The notes under the pieces are model-generated. The model saw only the letters and a program-made list of their open reading frames with translations, ran no database searches and was not told where the DNA came from. A stretch of 42,516 bases of DNA from a virus, in UHGV virus genome UHGV-0390922; one strand, 5' to 3'. Below are positions 3,597-28,026 of this stretch, piece by piece (positions within the stretch are counted from its first letter, which is position 1; every line of letters starts with the position of its first letter). The translations under genes were made by a program, and so were the position numbers.

Positions 3597-3763
3597 AAAA
3601 GGTCGTTTATGTCGGAAAAGTCGTTTTATAATAAAATCCGAAGCCAAAGGCATACAGCCGACGGCTTGCACTTAGCCCCAGTCGGCCGCCGGGTGTCACA
3701 GCCCCGCGGCCGAATCGTCTGGCTCTGGATTCCGGCCCAGGGCTGGACGTCCCCTTTTTCCTT

Positions 3764-3835
3764 TGTGGGATAGCTCAGCGGAAGAGCGACGGCCTTACAA
3801 GCCGCAGGTCACTGGTTCGATTTCGGTTCCCACGA
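3764..3835 (+). tRNA. tRNA-Val (anticodon TAC), phage-encoded, slightly atypical
   Basis: Hand-folded cloverleaf: 7-bp acceptor stem (U1.G72 wobble), U8, D-arm GCTC/AGCGGAA/GAGC with G18G19, anticodon loop CTTACAA (U33, A37), T-arm ACTGG/TTCGATT/TCGGT with a G53.U61 wobble. Discriminator A, no encoded CCA. Confidence 0.55.
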
Positions 3836-3963
3836 TTCAGTTTCATTTTTTCATGCGTTATTCTCCTTTGTATGGGTCCCTGCTTCGGCGGGGGCTCTCT
3901 TTTTGTCAACATATTGTGGATAATGTGTGGATAAATACAAGATATTGATTGGAGGTGAGCCTG

Positions 3964-5754: not shown

Positions 5755-7134
5755 ATGAAATTTTCAAAAATGCTGACAGCGATCACAGAGATATTGAATC
5801 AGAATTCCGACACGCAGATAGATGTATGCCTGACTTCTCAAATGGCCTCTGCGATTGAGTTATGGACAGCCATGTACGAGAATCATGCTCCCTGGGTAGA
5901 CCGGGAAACAGTCAAGAGCGCACAGATACCGGCAGCTATCGCCTCAGAGATTGCAAGATTGGTGACATTGGAGATGCAGTCGGAGATAACCGGCGGCGCG
6001 GCGGCTGAATATCTGAACCAGGAGTACCAGAAAAAGGTGCTGGCTGATCTGCGGCGCTATGTGGAATACGGGTGCGCAAAGGGCGGCCTGATTCTTAAAC
6101 CGTATATGACTAAAACAGGGCTTGCAATCCAGTATGTGCAGGCAGACAGCTTTTTCCCGCTGTCGTTCGATGATTCGGGCCGGATCATGCAATGCGTGTT
6201 TACGGAACAGTTCCGAAAAGGAAAGAAGATATATACCCGGCTGGAAGTACATACGCTGCAGAATGATGTAATCCACATTACAAACAGGGCTTTCGTGGCT
6301 ACCAACGATTACAGCCTGGGAACAGAGCTCGAGGTCAGCAGCGTGGATCGCTGGTCTGAATTGGTGCCGGAGATATCGCTTGCGGGATCGGACAGGCTCC
6401 TGTTTGGGTATTTCAAGGTACCTATGGCAAATGCGGAGGACACAGACAGCCCGTTGGGGGTATCGGTATATTCCAGAGCAGACGAGCTGGTAGCGGAAGC
6501 GGACCGGAGGTACTCAAATATCTGCTGGGAGTATGAGGGCACGCAGCTTGCGGTTCATATTGCTGAGAGTATGCTGAAATACAACAAGGACAGGGATAAG
6601 TTTGAATATCCGGGAGGAAAAAAACGATTATATCGGGAGTTGAACTACGAGACAGGAGCCACAGACAAGCCGCTTATTGATACATTTTCTCCCGGAATTC
6701 GAGATACCGCCCTGTTTAACGGATTCAATGCCCAGCTGCGGCTGATTGAGTTTGTCTGCAATCTGGCATATGGCACCCTGTCAGATCCCCAGAATGTGGA
6801 TAAGACGGCCACAGAGATCAAGGTCAGCAAACAGCGGTCCTATACATTCGTATCTGACACGCAGATGGCTTTACAGCGAGCTCTGGAAGATCTGGTGTAC
6901 GCAATGAACTTCTGGGCGGTGCTGTATGGCCTGATCCCTCCGGGAAATGATTATCAGGTATCCTTTGTTTGGGATGACAGTATCATCGTGGATGCGGAAA
7001 CGGAGCGGCAGACAGATCGGCAGGATGTGGCTATGGGCGTAATGTCATTGGCTGAGTACCGCAGTAAGTGGTACGGGGAGACGCTGGAAGAGGCGGCAAA
7101 AAATCTGCCGGAACCAGCATTGACAGAGGAGTGA
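5755..7134 (+). CDS. portal protein
   Basis: About 460 aa, immediately downstream of TerL. Size and position fit an SPP1-like portal. Confidence 0.65.
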   Translation: MKFSKMLTAITEILNQNSDTQIDVCLTSQMASAIELWTAMYENHAPWVDRETVKSAQIPAAIASEIARLVTLEMQSEITGGAAAEYLNQEYQKKVLADLRRYVEYGCAKGGLILKPYMTKTGLAIQYVQADSFFPLSFDDSGRIMQCVFTEQFRKGKKIYTRLEVHTLQNDVIHITNRAFVATNDYSLGTELEVSSVDRWSELVPEISLAGSDRLLFGYFKVPMANAEDTDSPLGVSVYSRADELVAEADRRYSNICWEYEGTQLAVHIAESMLKYNKDRDKFEYPGGKKRLYRELNYETGATDKPLIDTFSPGIRDTALFNGFNAQLRLIEFVCNLAYGTLSDPQNVDKTATEIKVSKQRSYTFVSDTQMALQRALEDLVYAMNFWAVLYGLIPPGNDYQVSFVWDDSIIVDAETERQTDRQDVAMGVMSLAEYRSKWYGETLEEAAKNLPEPALTEE

Positions 7135-9148: not shown

Positions 9149-9485
9149 ATGCATTTTTAGGTTGTGCGACGTCGCAACAGGGAGGTGAGGCAATTGATTG
9201 AATGTATGATTCGGTGGTTTCGGCAGAGGCGCTGTCAGCACAGGTACCGTAAGCACTGGAGCCGGGAGGCTGGCGGGTATGTGCGGCGGTGCGTGAGGTG
9301 TGGAAAAATCGAATAAGTCACAGCAAGTCATAGAATTAGTCATAAGCACGCAGGCGGGGCCTGGGTGTTATTTTTATGCCTTTTTCCGGTCAGATGATGA
9401 GACCTAAAACAGTCATTCGTTTGGTGGATGGTTACACACCTATAAATAACCTAACGGCGAATCATGGAAAGAAAGGAAATATGAA

Positions 9486-23235: not shown

Positions 23236-23700
23236 ATGAAAGCTAAAGCAATCGAATACACAATAAGTGCAGCTATCGGAGCGTTTTTCAGTTTCTTTGG
23301 AGTGCTGGCAATCCCGTTAGCTTTGCTGATCCCCTGCAATATCATTGACTACTTTACAGGGATGGCAGCATCAAAGGTGAATGGGGAAAAGATTACAAGC
23401 GAAAAGTCATTTGCGGGTATTGTGAAAAAAGTAATGATGTACATACTGATTTTTGTGGGATATGGAGTAGACTGTATGATTTCCTACGTAGCAGCCAACT
23501 TACATATTGAAATGGCGTTTCCGCTGCTGTTCTCCGCGATGGTGGCGTCCTGGCTGGTAATCAATGAGTTGATCAGTATTACGGAGAATTGTGAGGCGAC
23601 AGGAGTGGCAATTCCTGTATTAAGTCCGGTATTACGTTTTATAAAGAAAAAGATTGAAACGGTAGTGGATACCCCAGAAGAGGGAATAAAGAAAGAATAA
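23236..23700 (+). CDS. holin (holin 4_1 / TcdE-like family)
   Basis: 154 aa, three hydrophobic helices, WLVINELISITEN motif typical of this family. Directly upstream of the lysis region. Confidence 0.7.
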   Translation: MKAKAIEYTISAAIGAFFSFFGVLAIPLALLIPCNIIDYFTGMAASKVNGEKITSEKSFAGIVKKVMMYILIFVGYGVDCMISYVAANLHIEMAFPLLFSAMVASWLVINELISITENCEATGVAIPVLSPVLRFIKKKIETVVDTPEEGIKKE

Positions 23701-23762: not shown

Positions 23763-23791
23763 TTGCGGCATAATTGCTGCTGTGCTATAAT
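23763..23791 (+). promoter_or_regulatory. promoter of Fst-like toxin 1
   Basis: TTGCGG, 17-bp spacer, TGcTATAAT extended -10. The 5' UTR contains CCTCC 18 nt upstream of the GGGAGG SD, a possible SD-sequestering hairpin. Confidence 0.5.
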
Positions 23792-23839
23792 GCTAACGTT
23801 ACCGCCTCCGAATCTGGTGACAGAAGGGAGGTGTTTCAT

Positions 23840-23926
23840 TTGGATCACATTCTATCGTTTATCGTCGCTGTTGCGGCTGGTGTAGCCTGCCACTACATCA
23901 TCAAATGGTTGGACGGCGACAAGTAA
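23840..23926 (+). CDS. Fst/Ldr-like type I toxin peptide (28 aa)
   Basis: TTG start 6 nt after GGGAGGTG. LDHILSFIVAVAAGVACHYIIKWLDGDK. Hydrophobic helix plus KWLD charged tail resembles Fst (APIFVGLVLEMISRVLDEED). Confidence 0.5.
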   Translation: MDHILSFIVAVAAGVACHYIIKWLDGDK

Positions 23927-23960
23927 TCGGTAACCAGCCTACAGATGCCTGACTGTATAA

Positions 23961-23999
23961 AATCGGAAGAACCCCCAGAAGGTGTGAGCTTCTGGGGGT
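23961..23999. terminator. bidirectional intrinsic terminator shared by toxin mRNA and antisense RNA
   Basis: GAACCCCCAGAAG gtgtgag CTTCTGGGGGTTC, T-run downstream and A-run upstream. Confidence 0.6.
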
Positions 24000-24036
24000 T
24001 CGTTTGTTTCATTTGGAAACATCCTATCGTTTGCCT
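23961..24036 (-). ncRNA. putative antitoxin sRNA (RNA II-like) of TA locus 1
   Basis: Convergent - strand promoter at 24043..24071. Transcript would cross the direct-repeat copy at 23995..24030 (about 85% identical to the toxin translation-initiation region) and end at the shared terminator. This is the par/Fst architecture. Confidence 0.45.
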
Positions 24037-24042
24037 ACTGGC

Positions 24043-24071
24043 ATTATAGCATATGCAGATTTTAAATGCAA
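24043..24071 (-). promoter_or_regulatory. promoter of antitoxin sRNA 1
   Basis: On the - strand: TTGCAT, 17-bp spacer, TATAAT. Confidence 0.5.
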
Positions 24072-24134
24072 GATACCTGAAAATGATTTTTGTCCGGTTT
24101 TGTGCCGGGCTTTTTTATTTGGAGGCAAAGACAT

Positions 24135-24926
24135 ATGGAAAACGCAGTAAAGAAACTCATTGATCAGGCCGCCCATTGGGATGGCTATCTGGAAAAGAAA
24201 AGCAACGCCCAGCTGGATGATTTTACGGCCAATGCCGGCAGCGGCAATTTCACTTGCTTTGCCAGGGACTATAAGACACATACCGGTCAGAACCTGCAGG
24301 CCCAGCCCTGGTGTGCCATGTTCGTATCAGAGGTATTTGTGCAGGCATTTGGGCTGGAGGCGGCTAAGAAACTTCTGGGCGGCAGCCTGTACCATTATTG
24401 CCCCACAGGGGTCAACCAGTTTAAAAAGGCAGGCCGGTGGGCCGCGGTGCCGGAGCCTGGGGCAGTGATCTTTTTTACCAACGGCCAGAGAGCCTATCAT
24501 ACAGGGATCGTTACAGAGGTGACGGCAACGCGGATCAAGACCATTGAGGGTAATACGTCCGGTGCATCCGGTGTGATTGAAAACGGCGGCGGGGTGTGCC
24601 GGAAGGCTTACAGCCGGTCTTATGGGAAAATTCTTGGCTACGGGCTGCCGGACTGGTCGATTGTCAGCCAATCAGAATACGTATTAGGCTGGCACCATGA
24701 CAGTAACGGATGGTGGTACGCAGACACGTCCCACACCTATTATAAGTCCTGCTGGCAGGTGATTAACCATCACAAGTATTATTTTAACCAGGATGGCTAC
24801 GCATTGACAGACTGGCATCAGATCGATGGGAAGTGGTATTATTTTGAGTCGGCGGCAGGCCACCCGTTGGAATGTGCTTTGTATGTAACCGACGCCAGCG
24901 GGGTACAGGGGCCGGGTGAGTTTTAA
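24135..24926 (+). CDS. endolysin: CHAP/amidase_5-like Cys-His peptidase plus CW_binding_1 repeats
   Basis: Catalytic Cys in QPWCAMFVSEVF and His in AYHTGIVTEV. C-terminal GWHHDSNGWWYAD / DGKWYYFESAAG choline-binding-type repeats. GGAGG RBS. Confidence 0.75.
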   Translation: MENAVKKLIDQAAHWDGYLEKKSNAQLDDFTANAGSGNFTCFARDYKTHTGQNLQAQPWCAMFVSEVFVQAFGLEAAKKLLGGSLYHYCPTGVNQFKKAGRWAAVPEPGAVIFFTNGQRAYHTGIVTEVTATRIKTIEGNTSGASGVIENGGGVCRKAYSRSYGKILGYGLPDWSIVSQSEYVLGWHHDSNGWWYADTSHTYYKSCWQVINHHKYYFNQDGYALTDWHQIDGKWYYFESAAGHPLECALYVTDASGVQGPGEF

Positions 24927-25013: not shown

Positions 25014-25697
25014 ATGGAGTTTATGTTAGTAGAAATTACACAGAGAAACAACGAAGAGGTTTTAACCGCCAGCAGCAGACAGGTAGCAGATAAATTCGAG
25101 AAGGAGCACAGGCACGTACTGGAATCCATTGATAAAATGAAAGAACAGTTGAGTACAGCCGAATTTTCGGCTCTATTCATGGAAGGTAAATATGTGGCGT
25201 CTAATGGGAAGAAGAACAAAGAGTATCTCATGACCCGTGACGGATTCTCACTCCTGGTGATGGGGTTCACCGGAGAAAAGGTGTTGCGCTGGAAACTGGA
25301 CTACATTAAGGCCTTCAATGAAATGGAGAAGGAGCTGAAACGCCTGTATTCAGAGAGACAGAAGTGGGAGATTGAGAGGCAGAAGGGTATCCTGGTGCGT
25401 CACATACTGACCGACACCATTAAAATGAAAGTGACCGACAGTCCTCATAAGAAATTCATGTACCCCAATTACACCAAGCTTATCTACAAGACCATCTTCG
25501 GCAAGACCATGAAGGAACTACAGGAGCAGTATGGGGTGAAGGGGAAGGAGAGTATTCGGGAATATGTGACGGCGGACGAGCCTAAAATGATTGAGGACAT
25601 GGAAATGCTTGTGAGCAGCCTGATAAGCTGCGGCTGGGGGTATGACCAGATCAAGGGATTCATCCAGGAGAACTCGGCGAAGATGTTGGCGGGTTAA
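25014..25697 (+). CDS. phage regulatory protein Rha family
   Basis: VLTASSRQVADKFEKEHRHVLESID...LMTRDGFSLLVMGFTGEKVLRWKLDYIKAFNEME matches the Rha N-terminal domain. Confidence 0.7.
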   Translation: MEFMLVEITQRNNEEVLTASSRQVADKFEKEHRHVLESIDKMKEQLSTAEFSALFMEGKYVASNGKKNKEYLMTRDGFSLLVMGFTGEKVLRWKLDYIKAFNEMEKELKRLYSERQKWEIERQKGILVRHILTDTIKMKVTDSPHKKFMYPNYTKLIYKTIFGKTMKELQEQYGVKGKESIREYVTADEPKMIEDMEMLVSSLISCGWGYDQIKGFIQENSAKMLAG

Positions 25698-25903
25698 GGT
25701 ACTGTGGGAGCTTCCGCCACAGAAGGAAGAATGTATTGTTATCCTTTGAATCCAGATGTCGATTTATTCTGTTAGACTGGTGCCTGGATTAGGACGGGGT
25801 GTTGCGGTGGCCTGGACTCATTGAGTAAAAAATATATGGCGAAGTAAAAGCAGTTATGGTATAATCTGGATGTTGTCCTACCGATACCCGGCAACGGGAG
25901 GAG

Positions 25904-26011
25904 GTGATCGTCATCGAAGCATTGTTTACCTTTATTATTTCTGTCGGAGCAGGTGTGGCTTGCCACCTCATCTGTAAATGGCTAGACAGAAAAGAAAAGG
26001 ACAACAAATAG
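25904..26011 (+). CDS. Fst/Ldr-like type I toxin peptide, paralogue 2 (about 30-35 aa)
   Basis: ...EALFTFIISVGAGVACHLICKWLDRKEKDNK. Start uncertain (GTG 25904 abuts the SD; TTG at 25922 is possible). TGgTATAAT extended -10 at 25857..25865. Confidence 0.45.
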   Translation: MIVIEALFTFIISVGAGVACHLICKWLDRKEKDNK

Positions 26012-26046
26012 CCTAGTGGGTGCTTTGCCACTATAAAAGAAAAGAG

Positions 26047-26111
26047 GAAGCCCTCAACTGTGGTGCAACACGGTTGGGGGCTTCACTCTTTTGTCATCGA
26101 AATACTGCTTA
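26047..26111 (-). ncRNA. putative antitoxin sRNA of TA locus 2
   Basis: Terminator GAAGCCCtCAAC...GTTGgGGGCTTC, then a direct-repeat copy (gtcatcgaaatactgcttacctttt). The convergent promoter is nearly identical to that of locus 1. Confidence 0.45.
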
Positions 26112-26117
26112 CCTTTT

Positions 26118-26146
26118 GCCTACTGGCATTATAACATATGCAATTC
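26118..26146 (-). promoter_or_regulatory. promoter of antitoxin sRNA 2
   Basis: On the - strand: TTGCAT-17-TATAAT. Surrounding ~45 nt (tgcctactggcattata.catatgca) is conserved with locus 1. Confidence 0.5.
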
Positions 26147-26159
26147 TGAAATGCAATAT

Positions 26160-26595
26160 TCTTGAAGTTTTTTATATATCTATAGATATACAGAGATAAG
26201 AGGGTAGGCAATGTCTACCATTTGTCAACCTTGAACAGATTCGGCTATAATATATATGATGATATTATAGGTCTATAGATTTTTTGAAATGTAGATATAT
26301 ATTAACAAACAAAGGGTCGTAGATGATTCCATAACACGCATAAACCATGTTAAATGCTACAGCTGAACTTGGGCAACAACCCCATGGTTGGTGCTACAGT
26401 GGCCGTGGCTGTAAGTATCGAGGAGGCAGCTAAGGAAGGCAAGTTTTAATAAAAGACCTTGGATTTACAAGGAAAAATGAAATTTTAAACTTGGAGGGGA
26501 ATCGCTTTTGAGCGGTTCCTCTTTTGCGGTCTTAGGGATACAAATGCTGTTTTGTCAACCATTTGTCAACCCTTTTTTGAGCGGTAGACAAATTA
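26160..26595. promoter_or_regulatory. attP-like AT-rich region with repeated TTTGTCAACC sites
   Basis: TTTGTCAACC at 26221, 26551 and 26562 (tandem pair abutting the 3' end of int). AT-rich palindromic tracts (tatatatctatagatata). Position between the lysis genes and int. Confidence 0.4.
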
Positions 26596-27786
26596 CTATT
26601 CGATTTGATTTAAAATATCAATCGTATGTGCGGCCATGCGAGGGGTAGCATGGCTGTATATATTAAGAGTAATATCAATATGTTTGTGCCCTAATCTTTT
26701 CTGAACATCTTTTATATCGGCGCCGGCCTCCAGCAGCATAGTTGCATGAGTATGCCTGAGGGAATGGTAGTCAAAATCTTTAAAGCCAAGATTGTAATGG
26801 ATAACACGGCAACAGTGCTGCATAACTCTGGGTTGAATATAAGTGCCGTTTTCACGGCAATTTACCATATTGATAGGCTTTCCGTGCCCATTGGCATTAA
26901 GAACGTGATTATCATCTATATAGAGCTGAGTGTAATATTGTCCATAAAATTCCTTTGCCTTTGCCTGATGATTATATGCGTTACGCAGCAGGCTGAGAGT
27001 CTTGCCATCTAATTCAATCGTGCGAAAGCTATCATATTTTGGGTTGCTGAATACCCAGGAGCCATTTGTGTTCTGAATCTGCTGATTAACACTTAAAGTG
27101 CTGTTTTTGAAATCGATATCGTCCCAGGTAAGTGCAAATGCTTCCCCGAGCCGTAAGCCGCAGCGATATGCAAGCTGCAGGGGGATATGGCAGGAATGTC
27201 CTTCCGGGAATCTGCTGATAATGGTGTTCCATTCTTCGGTGGATATAGAAGTACGGTTCTTTTTTCGAGAAGGTATCTGGGAAGTTGCCCTTTTTGGTGG
27301 TAGTTTTGTACTTTTGGCAGGATTGTATTTAATGAATTGCATAGGCTCTACAGCATAGTCGAGAGCACCTGTCAGAAGTCCTTTGAGCACGGATAGTGTA
27401 TTTCGGCTATACCCTGCATTGAATTTATCATTTATGAAACCCTGTATAATGGCAGGGGTCAGAGATTTTAAATAATAGCTTCCCAGAACCGGAGTGATGT
27501 GAAGAGATATTTTTTTCTTATAATTCAAATAGGTATCTATTTTGAGATTTGTTTTGCAATATTCTTCCAACCAAAGCTCATAGAAATCAGATACAGATAT
27601 CTCAGACGGTACAAAGTGAGATCCGGCGTTATCATACTCCGCCTTTGCCTGTGTTCCGGCGGCCAGAGCTTCCGCTTTAGTGCGGTATCCGCCCTTGCTG
27701 ATGGAATTACGCTTGCCGTTGATACGCGCGCCCTCAAAAGACCATTCCCAGGTCGATCCACGTTTGCGAGTTCTTAATTGTCCCAT
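26596..27786 (-). CDS. int: tyrosine-type site-specific integrase
   Basis: C-terminal RLGEAFALTWDDID...HSLRHTHATMLLEAG...LGHKHIDITLNIYSH (R..HxxR..Y catalytic signature). Start at ATG 27786, 7 nt after GGAGG. Confidence 0.85.
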   Translation of the reverse strand: MGQLRTRKRGSTWEWSFEGARINGKRNSISKGGYRTKAEALAAGTQAKAEYDNAGSHFVPSEISVSDFYELWLEEYCKTNLKIDTYLNYKKKISLHITPVLGSYYLKSLTPAIIQGFINDKFNAGYSRNTLSVLKGLLTGALDYAVEPMQFIKYNPAKSTKLPPKRATSQIPSRKKNRTSISTEEWNTIISRFPEGHSCHIPLQLAYRCGLRLGEAFALTWDDIDFKNSTLSVNQQIQNTNGSWVFSNPKYDSFRTIELDGKTLSLLRNAYNHQAKAKEFYGQYYTQLYIDDNHVLNANGHGKPINMVNCRENGTYIQPRVMQHCCRVIHYNLGFKDFDYHSLRHTHATMLLEAGADIKDVQKRLGHKHIDITLNIYSHATPRMAAHTIDILNQIE

Positions 27787-28026
27787 AATCATTCCTCCTT
27801 AATTTGTTGCGACGTCGCGCATTTTTGGGTACCAAAATACACCTGTACAGGTGCACGGAGGTATGGTACAATATGGGTGTTCAGATTATATTGTATTGGC
27901 CTCCGGGCCTGTACAGAAATTTATTTAAAGCCGTTCCTGTTGGCGCAGGGGCGGTTTTTATCTTTGAAGCGATGATAATAATAGCAATACTAAATGTGGT
28001 CTCGCTAGTTTGAACTTATGTGGGGA

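What the first reader, a model, noticed from the sequence alone, without database searches (positions are those of the whole stretch)
25835..26150. Second, paralogous Fst-like type I TA locus between the Rha gene and attP/int
The peptide (..EALFTFIISVGAGVACHLICKWLDRKEKDNK) shares the (S/T)FI.V.AGVACH.I.KWLD core with locus 1. The architecture is the same: extended -10 promoter, partially sequestered SD, hairpin terminator, direct repeat gtcatcgaa...ttacctttt after the terminator, and a convergent promoter. About 45 nt around the antisense promoter (tgcctactggcattata.catatgca...aaatgcaa) is nearly identical between the loci, while the toxin ORFs have diverged. Two paralogous type I TAs bracketing the lysin and Rha genes suggest selection for distinct toxin/antitoxin specificities, or for cross-regulation.
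Basis: partly seen in the sequence, partly recalled or inferred. Interest (0 to 1): 0.75.

Follow-up and report, generated by a model that had tools for sequence, protein, structure and literature searches.

The report
Second Fst/par-like toxin–antisense RNA cassette
This temperate gut-phage genome carries two diverged copies of a small membrane-toxin gene silenced by a convergent antisense RNA, built like the classic Enterococcus par/Fst addiction module; the family is widespread but unannotated in Lachnospiraceae and their phages, so this is a new member of a known kind, not a new kind of system.

Summary
Window 25835-26165 is a compact cassette. It has an extended -10 promoter, a structured leader, a strong SD, a 32-codon ORF (…FTFIISVGAGVACHLICKWLDRKEKDNK), a bidirectional terminator, a second copy of the start-codon region after the terminator, and a convergent near-consensus promoter. 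A diverged copy (locus 1, 23767-24080) lies between holin and CHAP lysin. Locus 2 lies between Rha and the integrase.

I aligned 96 non-redundant relatives from gut viral contigs and Lachnospiraceae genomes. Across them the two repeat copies co-vary within each locus, a 5'-end/stop-codon helix co-varies, the terminator shows many compensatory changes, and the ORF shows a coding signature. This is the par(pAD1)/Fst architecture.

The peptide carries the Fst/Ldr signature (S/AxxxG, Trp, charged tail, same register as PepA1) and hhalign gives 92% probability. It fails the curated Fst models. It links to Rfam SpF66.

Predicted toxin/antisense pairing is cognate-specific (-33 to -38 kcal/mol against about -16), so the loci look orthogonal rather than cross-regulating. 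They belong to different subfamilies and are not a local duplication.

Diverged pairs recur in related phages. Locus 2 has ATC at the conserved start position, so its translation is the main uncertainty. Nothing is shown experimentally.

The parts
25857..25865 (+). Locus 2 toxin promoter: extended -10 TGgTATAAT, with a weak -35
   Evidence: Read directly from the sequence. TG and TA..T are invariant or nearly invariant in 96 aligned loci.
25870..26094 (+). Predicted toxin mRNA 2 (about 225 nt). The ends are inferred from the -10 element and the terminator U-run.
   Evidence: MFE -91.4 kcal/mol, z = -6.5 against shuffles. Weak Rfam SpF66 match at 25873-26094, 20.6 bits, E 0.05.
25872..25879 (+). 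5' end strand GUUGUCCU of the long-range 5'-3' helix
   Evidence: Pairs with AGGACAAC 25998-26005 in the MFE structure. A cognate helix of 7 or more Watson-Crick bp is found in 65/96 loci, against 16% of non-cognate combinations.
25998..26005 (+). 3' strand AGGACAAC of the 5'-3' helix. It overlaps the last codons (K-D-N) just before the stop codon.
25896..25906 (+). Shine-Dalgarno region GGGAGGAGGTG. It is paired in the predicted full-length fold.
   Evidence: GGnGGTG is conserved in the family alignment.
25913..26011 (+). Toxin ORF 2: (M/I)EALFTFIISVGAGVACHLICKWLDRKEKDNK, read from ATC at the conserved start position. The alternative in-frame GTG 25904 abuts the SD.
   Evidence: Hydrophobic residues 3-21, tail 8/11 charged, and coding signature in relatives.
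25910..25933 (+). Repeat copy 1, covering the start codon and codons 2-7. This is the predicted target of the antisense RNA's 5' tail.
   Evidence: 20/24 identical to copy 2. Cognate against non-cognate test.
26014..26033 (+). Small 3'-UTR hairpin AGUGG…CCACU
   Evidence: The hairpin varies compensatorily within the subfamily (AGTGG/CCACT against GGTGG/CCACC) in alignment A3.
26047..26084 (.). Bidirectional intrinsic terminator shared by both RNAs
   Evidence: 16-bp stem with a U-run on both strands. 13 pairs show many compensatory changes across 96 loci.
26093..26116 (-). Repeat copy 2. Transcribed on the - strand, it forms the 5' tail of the antisense RNA and is complementary to copy 1.
26128..26156 (-). 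Antisense (antitoxin) promoter: TTGCAT, 17 nt spacer, TGtTATAAT
   Evidence: Read directly from the sequence. The block is 84% identical between the two loci. It is conserved in more than 150 loci, including ones found by protein identity only.
26036..26121 (-). Predicted antitoxin RNA 2 (about 86 nt): an unstructured 5' tail followed by the terminator hairpin
   Evidence: Fold. Duplex with toxin mRNA 2 is -122.6 kcal/mol, against -38.6 for antisense RNA 1 on the same mRNA; on toxin mRNA 1 antisense RNA 2 gives -56.9 against the cognate -112.3. The ends are inferred.
23767..24080 (+). Locus 1, the partner cassette. Promoter TTGCGG-17-TGcTATAAT, with the -10 at 23786-23791. SD 23826-23833. TTG start at 23840. 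ORF to 23926 (MDHILSFIVAVAAGVACHYIIKWLDGDK). Terminator 23969-24001. Repeat copies at 23832-23860 and 24005-24032. Antisense promoter 24043-24071 on the - strand.
   Evidence: Rfam SpF66 40.9 bits, E 1e-8.

Best explanation
Locus 2 is a par/Fst-type type I toxin-antitoxin cassette.

Proposed mechanism (inferred from sequence and covariation, by analogy with par of pAD1):
- A constitutive extended -10 promoter makes a stable, highly folded mRNA of about 225 nt for a 32-residue single-helix membrane peptide.
- In the full-length fold the 5' end is locked to the stop-codon region and the SD is paired, so translation is low.
- A convergent, near-consensus promoter makes an antisense RNA of about 86 nt.
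- The antisense terminator hairpin is fully complementary to the toxin mRNA terminator.
- Its single-stranded 5' tail, the reverse complement of repeat copy 2, pairs with repeat copy 1 across the start codon and blocks ribosome binding.
- If the less stable antisense RNA is no longer supplied, for example after loss or excision of the prophage, the toxin is translated and damages the membrane. This stabilises the element. Exclusion of other phages is an alternative pay-off.

Relation to locus 1: it is a separately acquired member of another subfamily with a different repeat sequence, so the two act independently.

Shown here: the sequence elements, the covariation and the distribution. Inferred: that both RNAs are made, their relative stabilities, toxicity of the peptide, and use of ATC (or GTG) as the start.
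For: Anatomy: read directly.

Repeat covariation: cognate score 19.3 against 8.9 (sd 2.7), and the cognate copy is best in 32/38 loci. Cognate duplex energy averages -42 kcal/mol against -23 for non-cognate.

Within the window, 5'-tail duplexes are -37.7 and -32.6 kcal/mol for cognate pairs and -15.7 and -16.4 for crossed pairs.

Terminator: compensatory pairs, for example columns 250/268 with AU 29, CG 24, UA 16 and GC 13.

5'-3' helix: 7 or more bp in 65/96 cognate cases against 16% non-cognate.

mRNA fold z = -6.5. The antisense RNA folds with a free 5' tail.

Coding signature: entropy by codon position 0.86/0.38/1.00, p = 0.004, and no in-frame stop in 95 loci.

Peptide: the family profile against Fst/PepA1/LdrD gives hhalign probability 92% over 30 columns, in register. 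The family HMM against the SpF66-encoded peptide gives 30 bits, with 0 of 2000 shuffles as good. That peptide hits NF033608 at E 1.5e-3.

Distribution: 61 viral contigs and 107 of 120 sampled genomes, mostly Lachnospiraceae. The cassette is also on plasmids, in an inovirus, in a mobilisable element and at a core chromosomal site. This matches what is described for Fst-family loci (PMC7472228).

The par features were taken from PMC7472228 and PMC3543317.
Against: - There is no canonical start codon at the conserved position (ATC 25913), and GTG 25904 has no usable spacing to the SD.
- The window peptides miss Pfam PF13955 and NCBIfam NF033608, while the Fst and PepA1 controls hit both.
- The family HMM does not score Fst or PepA1 above shuffles.
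- No Rfam family for a par/Fst antitoxin RNA appeared among the listed matches at E up to 10.
- The proline shown to be essential in Fst and Lpt is replaced by Ser in locus 2 and Ala in locus 1.
- I saw no YUNR U-turn in either terminator loop.
- There are no expression or toxicity data.
- hhalign scores for short hydrophobic peptides can be inflated by composition.
Confidence: 0.8

Rival explanations
1. Locus 2 is a toxin-dead or strongly attenuated copy. The peptide is no longer, or barely, translated because the start codon is lost. The cassette persists mainly for its antisense RNA, for example as an anti-addiction or immunity RNA against incoming elements with the same repeat specificity, or it is simply decaying.
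For: ATC sits at the start position, where 73/95 relatives have ATG, TTG or GTG, and about ten more have a start one codon upstream. Clearly decayed second copies exist in relatives: L032 has a 5' deletion and L013 has lost the start region.
Against: The ORF, SD, repeats, terminator and both promoters are intact. Two further lineages, L017 and L100, share ATC, and ATA recurs in L070, L087 and L058. pN/pS between ATC-bearing lineages is 0.35-0.41, and the GV.CHLICKWLD core is unchanged. On general knowledge, near-cognate AUC/AUA codons support low-level initiation.
Confidence: 0.15
2. The small peptides are lysis accessories of the phage (holin-, antiholin- or pinholin-like membrane peptides) and not addiction toxins. 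The antisense RNAs time their expression during the lytic cycle.
For: Locus 1 sits exactly between the holin (PF05105) and the CHAP lysin. Type I toxins and holins are physically similar (PMC2887945). Late transcription must cross this cassette to reach the lysin.
Against: The same cassette, with the same promoters and repeats, occurs where no lysis module exists: downstream of cysS-rlmB-sigH on a chromosome, in a RepA_N/Mob_Pre element, on 4.5-20 kb plasmids and in non-lytic inoviruses. Only a minority of loci lie near lysin or holin homologues: 13 and 5 of 163. Locus 2 is outside the lysis cassette.
Confidence: 0.04
3. The + strand RNA is a non-coding regulatory sRNA, as its Rfam relative SpF66 is filed, and the short ORF is incidental.
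For: Rfam lists SpF66 as 'Gene; sRNA'. The RNA is highly structured.
Against: The codon-position pattern shows coding constraint, K-W-L-D is invariant, and there are no stops in 95 loci. SD and start spacing are conserved. The SpF66 consensus itself translates to a homologous peptide, MSLILELVLTIIADVIAGIILYFVCKWLDGK.
Confidence: 0.01

Closest known systems
par locus of Enterococcus faecalis plasmid pAD1 (Fst toxin mRNA RNA I / antitoxin RNA II) and its chromosomal paralogue par_EF0409
   Same: - Convergent promoters, a shared bidirectional terminator and direct repeats on both sides of the terminator, transcribed in opposite directions so that the antitoxin covers the start codon.
- A structured 5' leader that hides the SD and the 5' end.
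- RNA sizes of about 210 and 65 nt there, against about 225 and 86 nt predicted here.
- A peptide of about 30 residues with one TM helix, an xxxG motif, an aromatic or Val residue followed by Leu-Asp, and a charged tail.
- Two paralogues can coexist in one cell without cross-protection because their repeats differ (PMC7472228).
   Different: - Ser/Ala replaces the essential Pro.
- A conserved Cys-His pair lies inside the helix.
- I saw no U-turn motif in the terminator loop.
- The 5'-closing helix reaches the stop-codon region.
- The host range is Lachnospiraceae and other gut Clostridia and their phages.
- The peptides fall below the curated Fst models.
SprA1/SprA1AS (PepA1) of Staphylococcus aureus and Fst-Sm/srSm of Streptococcus mutans
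   Same: The peptide register is identical to PepA1: position 10, G14, W23, L24. Fst-Sm has the same direct-repeat layout over the start codon, a toxin mRNA of about 200 nt and an antitoxin of about 70 nt (PMC3543317).
   Different: SprA1AS acts in trans through a non-overlapping region. Sequence identity to the window peptides is only about 20%.
Rfam RF02442 SpF66 sRNA (Streptococcus)
   Same: Locus 1 matches the full-length model at 40.9 bits (gathering score 42), and locus 2 at 20.6 bits. The model consensus encodes a peptide ending in CKWLDGK that scores 30 bits against the family HMM.
   Different: It is filed as an sRNA with no toxin annotation in the description shown by the tool. Its peptide has DxxxG. 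The Weaver review reports a DxxxG motif in one S. pneumoniae Fst clade.
Prophage-borne type I TA modules of Clostridioides difficile (phiCD630-1/-2) and Bacillus subtilis (SPbeta bsrG/SR4, yonT/SR6)
   Same: Several type I modules sit in one prophage, the toxins are small hydrophobic peptides with charged tails, and the proposed role is prophage stabilisation (PMC6563280).
   Different: The toxin families are unrelated and the antisense geometry differs. I found no similarity apart from a weak, below-cut-off hit of the SpF66 consensus peptide to NF047374.

Membership tests
par/Fst-type type I TA locus (RNA architecture) | Convergent promoters for the toxin mRNA and a short antitoxin RNA | tested here: met
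   TGgTATAAT at 25857-65 (+), and TTGCAT-17-TGtTATAAT at 26156-26128 (-). Both elements are conserved in 96 loci. Promoter activity itself was not tested.
par/Fst-type type I TA locus (RNA architecture) | Shared bidirectional intrinsic terminator between the two genes | tested here: met
   Stem at 26047-26084 with a U-run on each strand. Extensive compensatory covariation.
par/Fst-type type I TA locus (RNA architecture) | Direct repeats on both sides of the terminator, giving antitoxin complementarity to the toxin's translation-initiation region | tested here: met
   25910-25933 against 26093-26116, 20/24 identical. Cognate score 19.3 against non-cognate 8.9 across 38 loci.
par/Fst-type type I TA locus (RNA architecture) | [quoted passage not shown] | tested here: met
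   The 5' GUUGUCCU pairs with AGGACAAC at the ORF end, and this helix covaries. The SD is paired in the MFE and centroid structures. In locus 1 the SD pairs with the upstream CGCCUCC.
par/Fst-type type I TA locus (RNA architecture) | YUNR U-turn in the toxin terminator loop | tested here: not met
   The loops are GUGCAA (locus 2) and UGUGAGC (locus 1) and contain no YUNR. The review notes that not all homologues have this motif (PMC7472228), so it is not strictly defining.
Fst/Ldr toxin superfamily (peptide) | [quoted passage not shown] | tested here: met
   W23 follows the hydrophobic residues 3-21, and the tail KWLDRKEKDNK has 8/11 charged residues. K-W-L-D is invariant in the 23-peptide alignment A2.
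Fst/Ldr toxin superfamily (peptide) | P/D/S/TxxxG(C) motif in the TM helix | tested here: met
   Locus 2 has S10-V-G-A-G14 and relatives have S/T/A at position 10. Locus 1 has AxxxG, which is outside the published list. Pro, essential in Fst and Lpt, is absent (PMC7472228).
Fst/Ldr toxin superfamily (peptide) | Match to the curated family models (Pfam PF13955 Fst_toxin, NCBIfam NF033608) | tested here: not met
   No hit at E up to 10 for either window peptide. Controls Fst and PepA1 hit NF033608 at 34.7 and 58.3 bits. The SpF66 peptide reaches 18.3 bits, below the cut-off.
Fst/Ldr toxin superfamily (peptide) | Detectable remote homology by profile comparison | tested here: inconclusive
   hhalign of A2 against Fst+PepA1+LdrD gives probability 92% and E 6e-7 over 30 columns, in register. 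The family HMM against the single sequences is not above shuffles (Fst 299/2000, PepA1 956/2000, LdrD 8/2000). Composition bias in TM peptides is a caveat.
Type I toxin-antitoxin system (functional definition) | The peptide is toxic when expressed, and the antisense RNA neutralises it | not testable with these tools
   This needs expression experiments.
Rfam RF02442 SpF66 | Score at or above the gathering threshold (42 bits) | tested here: not met
   Locus 1 scores 40.9 bits (E 1e-8), just below threshold. Locus 2 scores 20.6 bits (E 0.05).

The most novel reading that the evidence does not exclude
The cassettes could be wired into the phage life cycle rather than being plain addiction modules.

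Locus 1 sits between holin and endolysin. Late transcription must therefore run through its terminator and collide with the antisense promoter. That collision would lower antitoxin RNA and release a membrane-depolarising peptide at the time of lysis.

The almost invariant antisense-promoter block (-35, TRTG, -10, then GCCAGTAGGCAA, with the palindromes TGCC-N4-GGCA and GCATATGC) could be a common operator. A conserved host or phage factor could then switch many otherwise orthogonal antitoxins at once.

The recurrent AUC/AUA start codons would be a built-in way to set toxin dose.
Probability: 0.12. Interest if true: 0.65.

Novelty: new member of a known kind. Interest (0 to 1): 0.4.

Why it matters

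This cassette family is present in at least 107 species-level genomes, mostly Lachnospiraceae, and in 61 gut viral contigs. It also occurs on plasmids and in inoviruses. Public records call it 'hypothetical' or do not annotate it at all.

Recognising it gives:
- an annotation rule: the KWLD peptide plus the conserved antisense promoter;
- a natural set of mutually orthogonal toxin/antisense pairs, useful for plasmid or prophage stabilisation tools in hard-to-engineer gut anaerobes;
- a case for reclassifying Rfam SpF66 as a toxin mRNA.

Conceptually it extends the known par/Fst family and does not change it.

Tried and rejected
- Pfam and NCBIfam scans of the peptides gave nothing meaningful.
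- A PDB sequence search with the family profile gave no hit.
The 50-aa ORF version worked but returned only unnamed homologues.
- An exact-sequence contig look-up of the 50-aa ORF found nothing on record.
- Megablast against isolated phages found only rodent-gut inoviruses, so the window's own phage is not among cultured records.
- A full-text search for 'SpF66' returned only malaria-vaccine papers. 'KWLD' plus 'toxin' found nothing relevant. No supplement is held for Fozo 2010, so I could not check whether its C. bolteae 'Fst-like' sequence belongs to this family.
- Column-wise covariation counting for the 5'-3' helix was abandoned because MAFFT puts the two subfamilies 3 columns out of register. 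I replaced it with a per-sequence cognate against non-cognate helix test.
- A local 5' hairpin (GTTrYC with GGyAAC just before the SD) shows no cognate excess and is not claimed.
- The neighbour survey by homology to the window's holin, lysin, Rha and integrase was uninformative: 142 of 163 loci have none nearby.
- The idea that the two loci arose by in-situ duplication is rejected. They are 40-60% identical outside the promoter block, and each has closer relatives elsewhere.

Full report
**Setting.** The window reads as a temperate siphovirus-type genome in packaged order. Structural genes occupy about 4-22 kb. They are followed by a holin (23236-23700, PF05105), a CHAP and choline-binding lysin (ATG 24135-24926) and a Rha protein (25014-25697). 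Then come an intergenic stretch, a tyrosine integrase on the minus strand (26596-27792), a cell-wall-binding protein, a CI-like HTH/S24 repressor on the minus strand, and rightward early genes. The finding lies between Rha and the integrase. The attP site itself was not mapped.

**Observation.**
- an extended -10 promoter, TGgTATAAT, at 25857-65;
- a strong SD, GGGAGGAGGTG, at 25896-906;
- an ORF ending at 26011;
- a 16-bp GC-rich hairpin at 26047-84 with U-runs on both strands;
- a 24-nt segment across the start region (25910-33) that recurs after the terminator (26093-116), 20/24 identical;
- a minus-strand promoter, TTGCAT-17 nt-TGtTATAAT, at 26156-26128.

The simple promoter scanner missed both promoters because their -35 hexamers match TTGACA at only 3/6 positions. 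The extended -10/TRTG motif is nonetheless nearly invariant in relatives.

Aligning locus 2 with locus 1 (23767-24080) shows the same order of parts. The block around the antisense promoter is 38/45 identical. The 5' UTR, ORF, 3' UTR, terminator and repeat regions are only 40-56% identical, and the toxin -10 region is 60%. A profile of the cassette finds exactly these two copies in the window.

**Relatives.** The 17-mer TGCCTACTGGCATTATA spans the antisense -10 and the first transcribed bases. In 107 of those 120, nhmmer confirms the whole cassette. The other 13 are chance hits, as expected for a 17-mer in 596 Gb.

Hosts are overwhelmingly Lachnospiraceae: Blautia, Dorea, Roseburia, Enterocloster, Acetatifactor and 'Ruminococcus'. 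The family also occurs in:
- rodent-gut inoviruses;
- small plasmids of Mogibacterium and Lactococcus raffinolactis, which have the same architecture with a perfect TTGACA-17-TATAAT antisense promoter;
- a RepA_N/Mob_Pre/serine-recombinase element;
- a core chromosomal site downstream of cysS-rlmB-sigH.

Loci found by protein identity alone also carry the exact 17-mer, so its conservation is not only a product of how I searched. Protein homologues in the 5.8-billion-sequence collection are unnamed or 'hypothetical'. One is called 'toxin', and none has a Pfam domain.

**Evidence that it works through antisense pairing.** If the post-terminator repeat is transcribed from the convergent promoter, its RNA is complementary to the toxin's initiation region. 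In that case the two copies must co-evolve within a locus while differing between loci. That is what is seen.
- In 38 distinct loci the cognate repeat alignment scores 19.3 on average, against 8.9 (sd 2.7) for non-cognate pairs. The cognate copy is the best match in 32/38 loci. Predicted duplex energies average -42 kcal/mol against -23.
- The terminator stem shows many double substitutions that keep pairing.
- The first 7-8 nt of the predicted mRNA (GUUGUCCU in locus 2, GUUACCG in locus 1) pair with a segment at or just after the stop codon (AGGACAAC, CGGUAAC). A Watson-Crick helix of 7 or more bp is present in 65/96 cognate combinations but in only 16% of non-cognate ones.
- Toxin mRNA 2 folds far better than shuffles (z = -6.5) with its SD paired. 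The predicted antisense RNA has a free 5' tail and a terminator hairpin.

These are the features that define par of pAD1 and its homologues: convergent promoters, a bidirectional terminator, DRa/DRb over the initiation region, and 5'-end and SD sequestration (PMC7472228, PMC3543317).

**The peptide.** Across 95 loci the ORF has no in-frame stop. The second codon position is the most conserved and the third the most variable (0.38 against 1.00 bits, p = 0.004). K-W-L-D is invariant in the 23-peptide alignment A2.

Read from the conserved start position, locus 2 encodes (M)EALFTFIISVGAGVACHLICKWLDRKEKDNK. This is a hydrophobic helix (residues 3-21), then Trp, then a tail with 8/11 charged residues.

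This is the published Fst/Ldr signature: Trp between the helix and a charged tail, plus P/D/S/TxxxG(C). Locus 2 has SxxxG and locus 1 has AxxxG. The register is identical to PepA1 (position 10, G14, W23, L24). I verified my remembered Fst and PepA1 sequences against PDB entries 2KV5 and 4B19.

The sequence-level tests give mixed results:
- Profile-profile comparison with Fst+PepA1+LdrD gives 92% probability over 30 columns.
- The curated models (PF13955, NF033608) do not detect the window peptides, although they detect the controls.
- The family HMM does not score Fst or PepA1 above shuffles.

A bridge exists. Locus 1 nearly reaches the gathering score of Rfam SpF66 (40.9 against 42 bits). The SpF66 consensus encodes …ADVIAGIILYFVCKWLDGK. 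That peptide scores 30 bits against this family and hits NF033608 weakly, at E 1.5e-3.

My conclusion is that this is a distinct clade of the Fst-like family. It works like par, and its membership by curated model fails. Fozo et al. [quoted passage not shown] I could not check whether those belong to this clade.

**The start codon.** At the position where 73/95 relatives have ATG, TTG or GTG, locus 2 has ATC. About ten more relatives start one codon upstream. The in-frame GTG at 25904 is part of the SD and has essentially no spacing.

ATC recurs in L017 and L100, and ATA in L070, L087 and L058. Between ATC lineages pN/pS is 0.35-0.41 and the conserved core is intact. The closest pair (window against L017) has too few differences to be informative.

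This favours low-level initiation at a near-cognate codon over decay, but the evidence is weak. It is the main reason I keep a 15% rival.

**Two loci in one phage.** The loci are not a recent duplication. Locus 1 belongs to the GUUACCG/…GDK subfamily and is 93% identical to L027. Locus 2 belongs to the GUUGUCC/…KDNK subfamily and is 87% identical to L017.

Predicted pairing is specific:
- 5'-tail duplexes are -37.7 and -32.6 kcal/mol for cognate pairs, against -15.7 and -16.4 for crossed pairs.
- Full-length duplexes are -112 and -123 kcal/mol for cognate pairs, against -57 and -39 for crossed pairs.

This mirrors the documented lack of cross-protection between par_pAD1 and par_EF0409 (PMC7472228).

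Pairs recur in relatives:
- L045 has the same holin-TA1-lysin-Rha-TA2 order, cut by the contig end.
- L029 has TA1-lysin-TA2-attP region-int, with a second copy of yet another subfamily.
- L032 has a decayed second copy at the same place.
- L019, L064 (three copies), L109, L123, L156, L167 and the L008 group carry tandem or nearby copies.

Multiple orthogonal cassettes at the lysis/attachment end of these phages are therefore a recurring, modular feature.

**Function.** By analogy with par and with the prophage-borne type I modules of C. difficile and B. subtilis (PMC6563280), the most likely role is stabilisation of the element. A possible added role is exclusion of competing phages. This is inference.

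The position of locus 1 inside the lysis cassette suggests a link to lysis. So does a further terminator-like hairpin at 24092-24110, just before the lysin. I rate that link unlikely, because the identical cassette type lives in non-lytic and non-phage contexts.

**Verdict.** This is a new, unannotated and widespread clade of a known kind of system, and nothing in it is categorically new. Interest is moderate.

Noticed in passing
window 24092-24110 (+), with 23969-24001: A second terminator-like hairpin (GTCCGG…CCGGGC followed by TTTTTTATTT) sits directly before the lysin SD and ATG (24135). Between holin and lysin there are therefore two + strand terminators and a convergent promoter. Lysin expression would need read-through, antitermination or its own promoter.
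   Followed up: no
window 24029-24073 and 26114-26158; L183-L186: The antisense-promoter block is far more conserved than the rest of the cassette. Beyond -35, TRTG and -10 it includes GCCAGTAGGCAA (the discriminator and first transcribed bases) and the palindromes TGCC-N4-GGCA and GCATATGC. The exact 17-mer is also present in loci retrieved by protein identity only. This could be an operator, or it could be a recombination anchor.
   Followed up: partly
L183/L185/L186 against L184 (about 5860-6260 in each): An identical cassette of about 330 bp lies in two unrelated contexts: after cysS-mrnC-rlmB-sigH on a chromosome, and after a serine recombinase in a RepA_N/Mob_Pre element. The flanks differ right up to the cassette ends. 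The cassette seems to move as a discrete unit by an unknown route.
   Followed up: partly
window 26160-26595: The attP-side intergenic region has a strong promoter-like site (TTGTCA-18-TATAAT, 26222-26251, +), AT-rich 'tatagatat' repeats and a small ORF (26354-26449, MLQLNLGNNPMVGATVAVAVSIEEAAKEGKF). Positions 26194-26453 are 81% identical in L029 and L032, next to their integrases. The ORF might be the replaced 3' end of the host target gene. The attP core was not mapped.
   Followed up: no
window 9388-9453 (+) and 3763-3836 (+): An Rfam GP20-b cis-regulatory RNA motif (44 bits, above the gathering score) lies upstream of the head genes. The phage also carries a tRNA-Val(TAC).
   Followed up: no
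L062 (PQ006183.1), PQ006166.1, PQ006100.1: Rodent-gut inoviruses (bajarodino viruses 15, 29 and 68) carry the same cassette, either unannotated or lying under a gene annotated with an unrelated function. A type I TA module in filamentous phages of presumably Gram-positive hosts is unusual.
   Followed up: partly
Rfam RF02442 (match at window 23798-24012): The SpF66 'sRNA' consensus contains a complete ORF, MSLILELVLTIIADVIAGIILYFVCKWLDGK, homologous to this family. The Rfam family is probably a type I toxin mRNA and not a non-coding sRNA.
   Followed up: partly
L032 4343-4464; L013 4662-4961; L065, L108, L142: Several relatives are visibly decayed, with a 5' deletion, a lost start region or no start codon, while keeping the terminator and antisense promoter. 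Toxin loss with antitoxin retention does occur in this family.
   Followed up: partly
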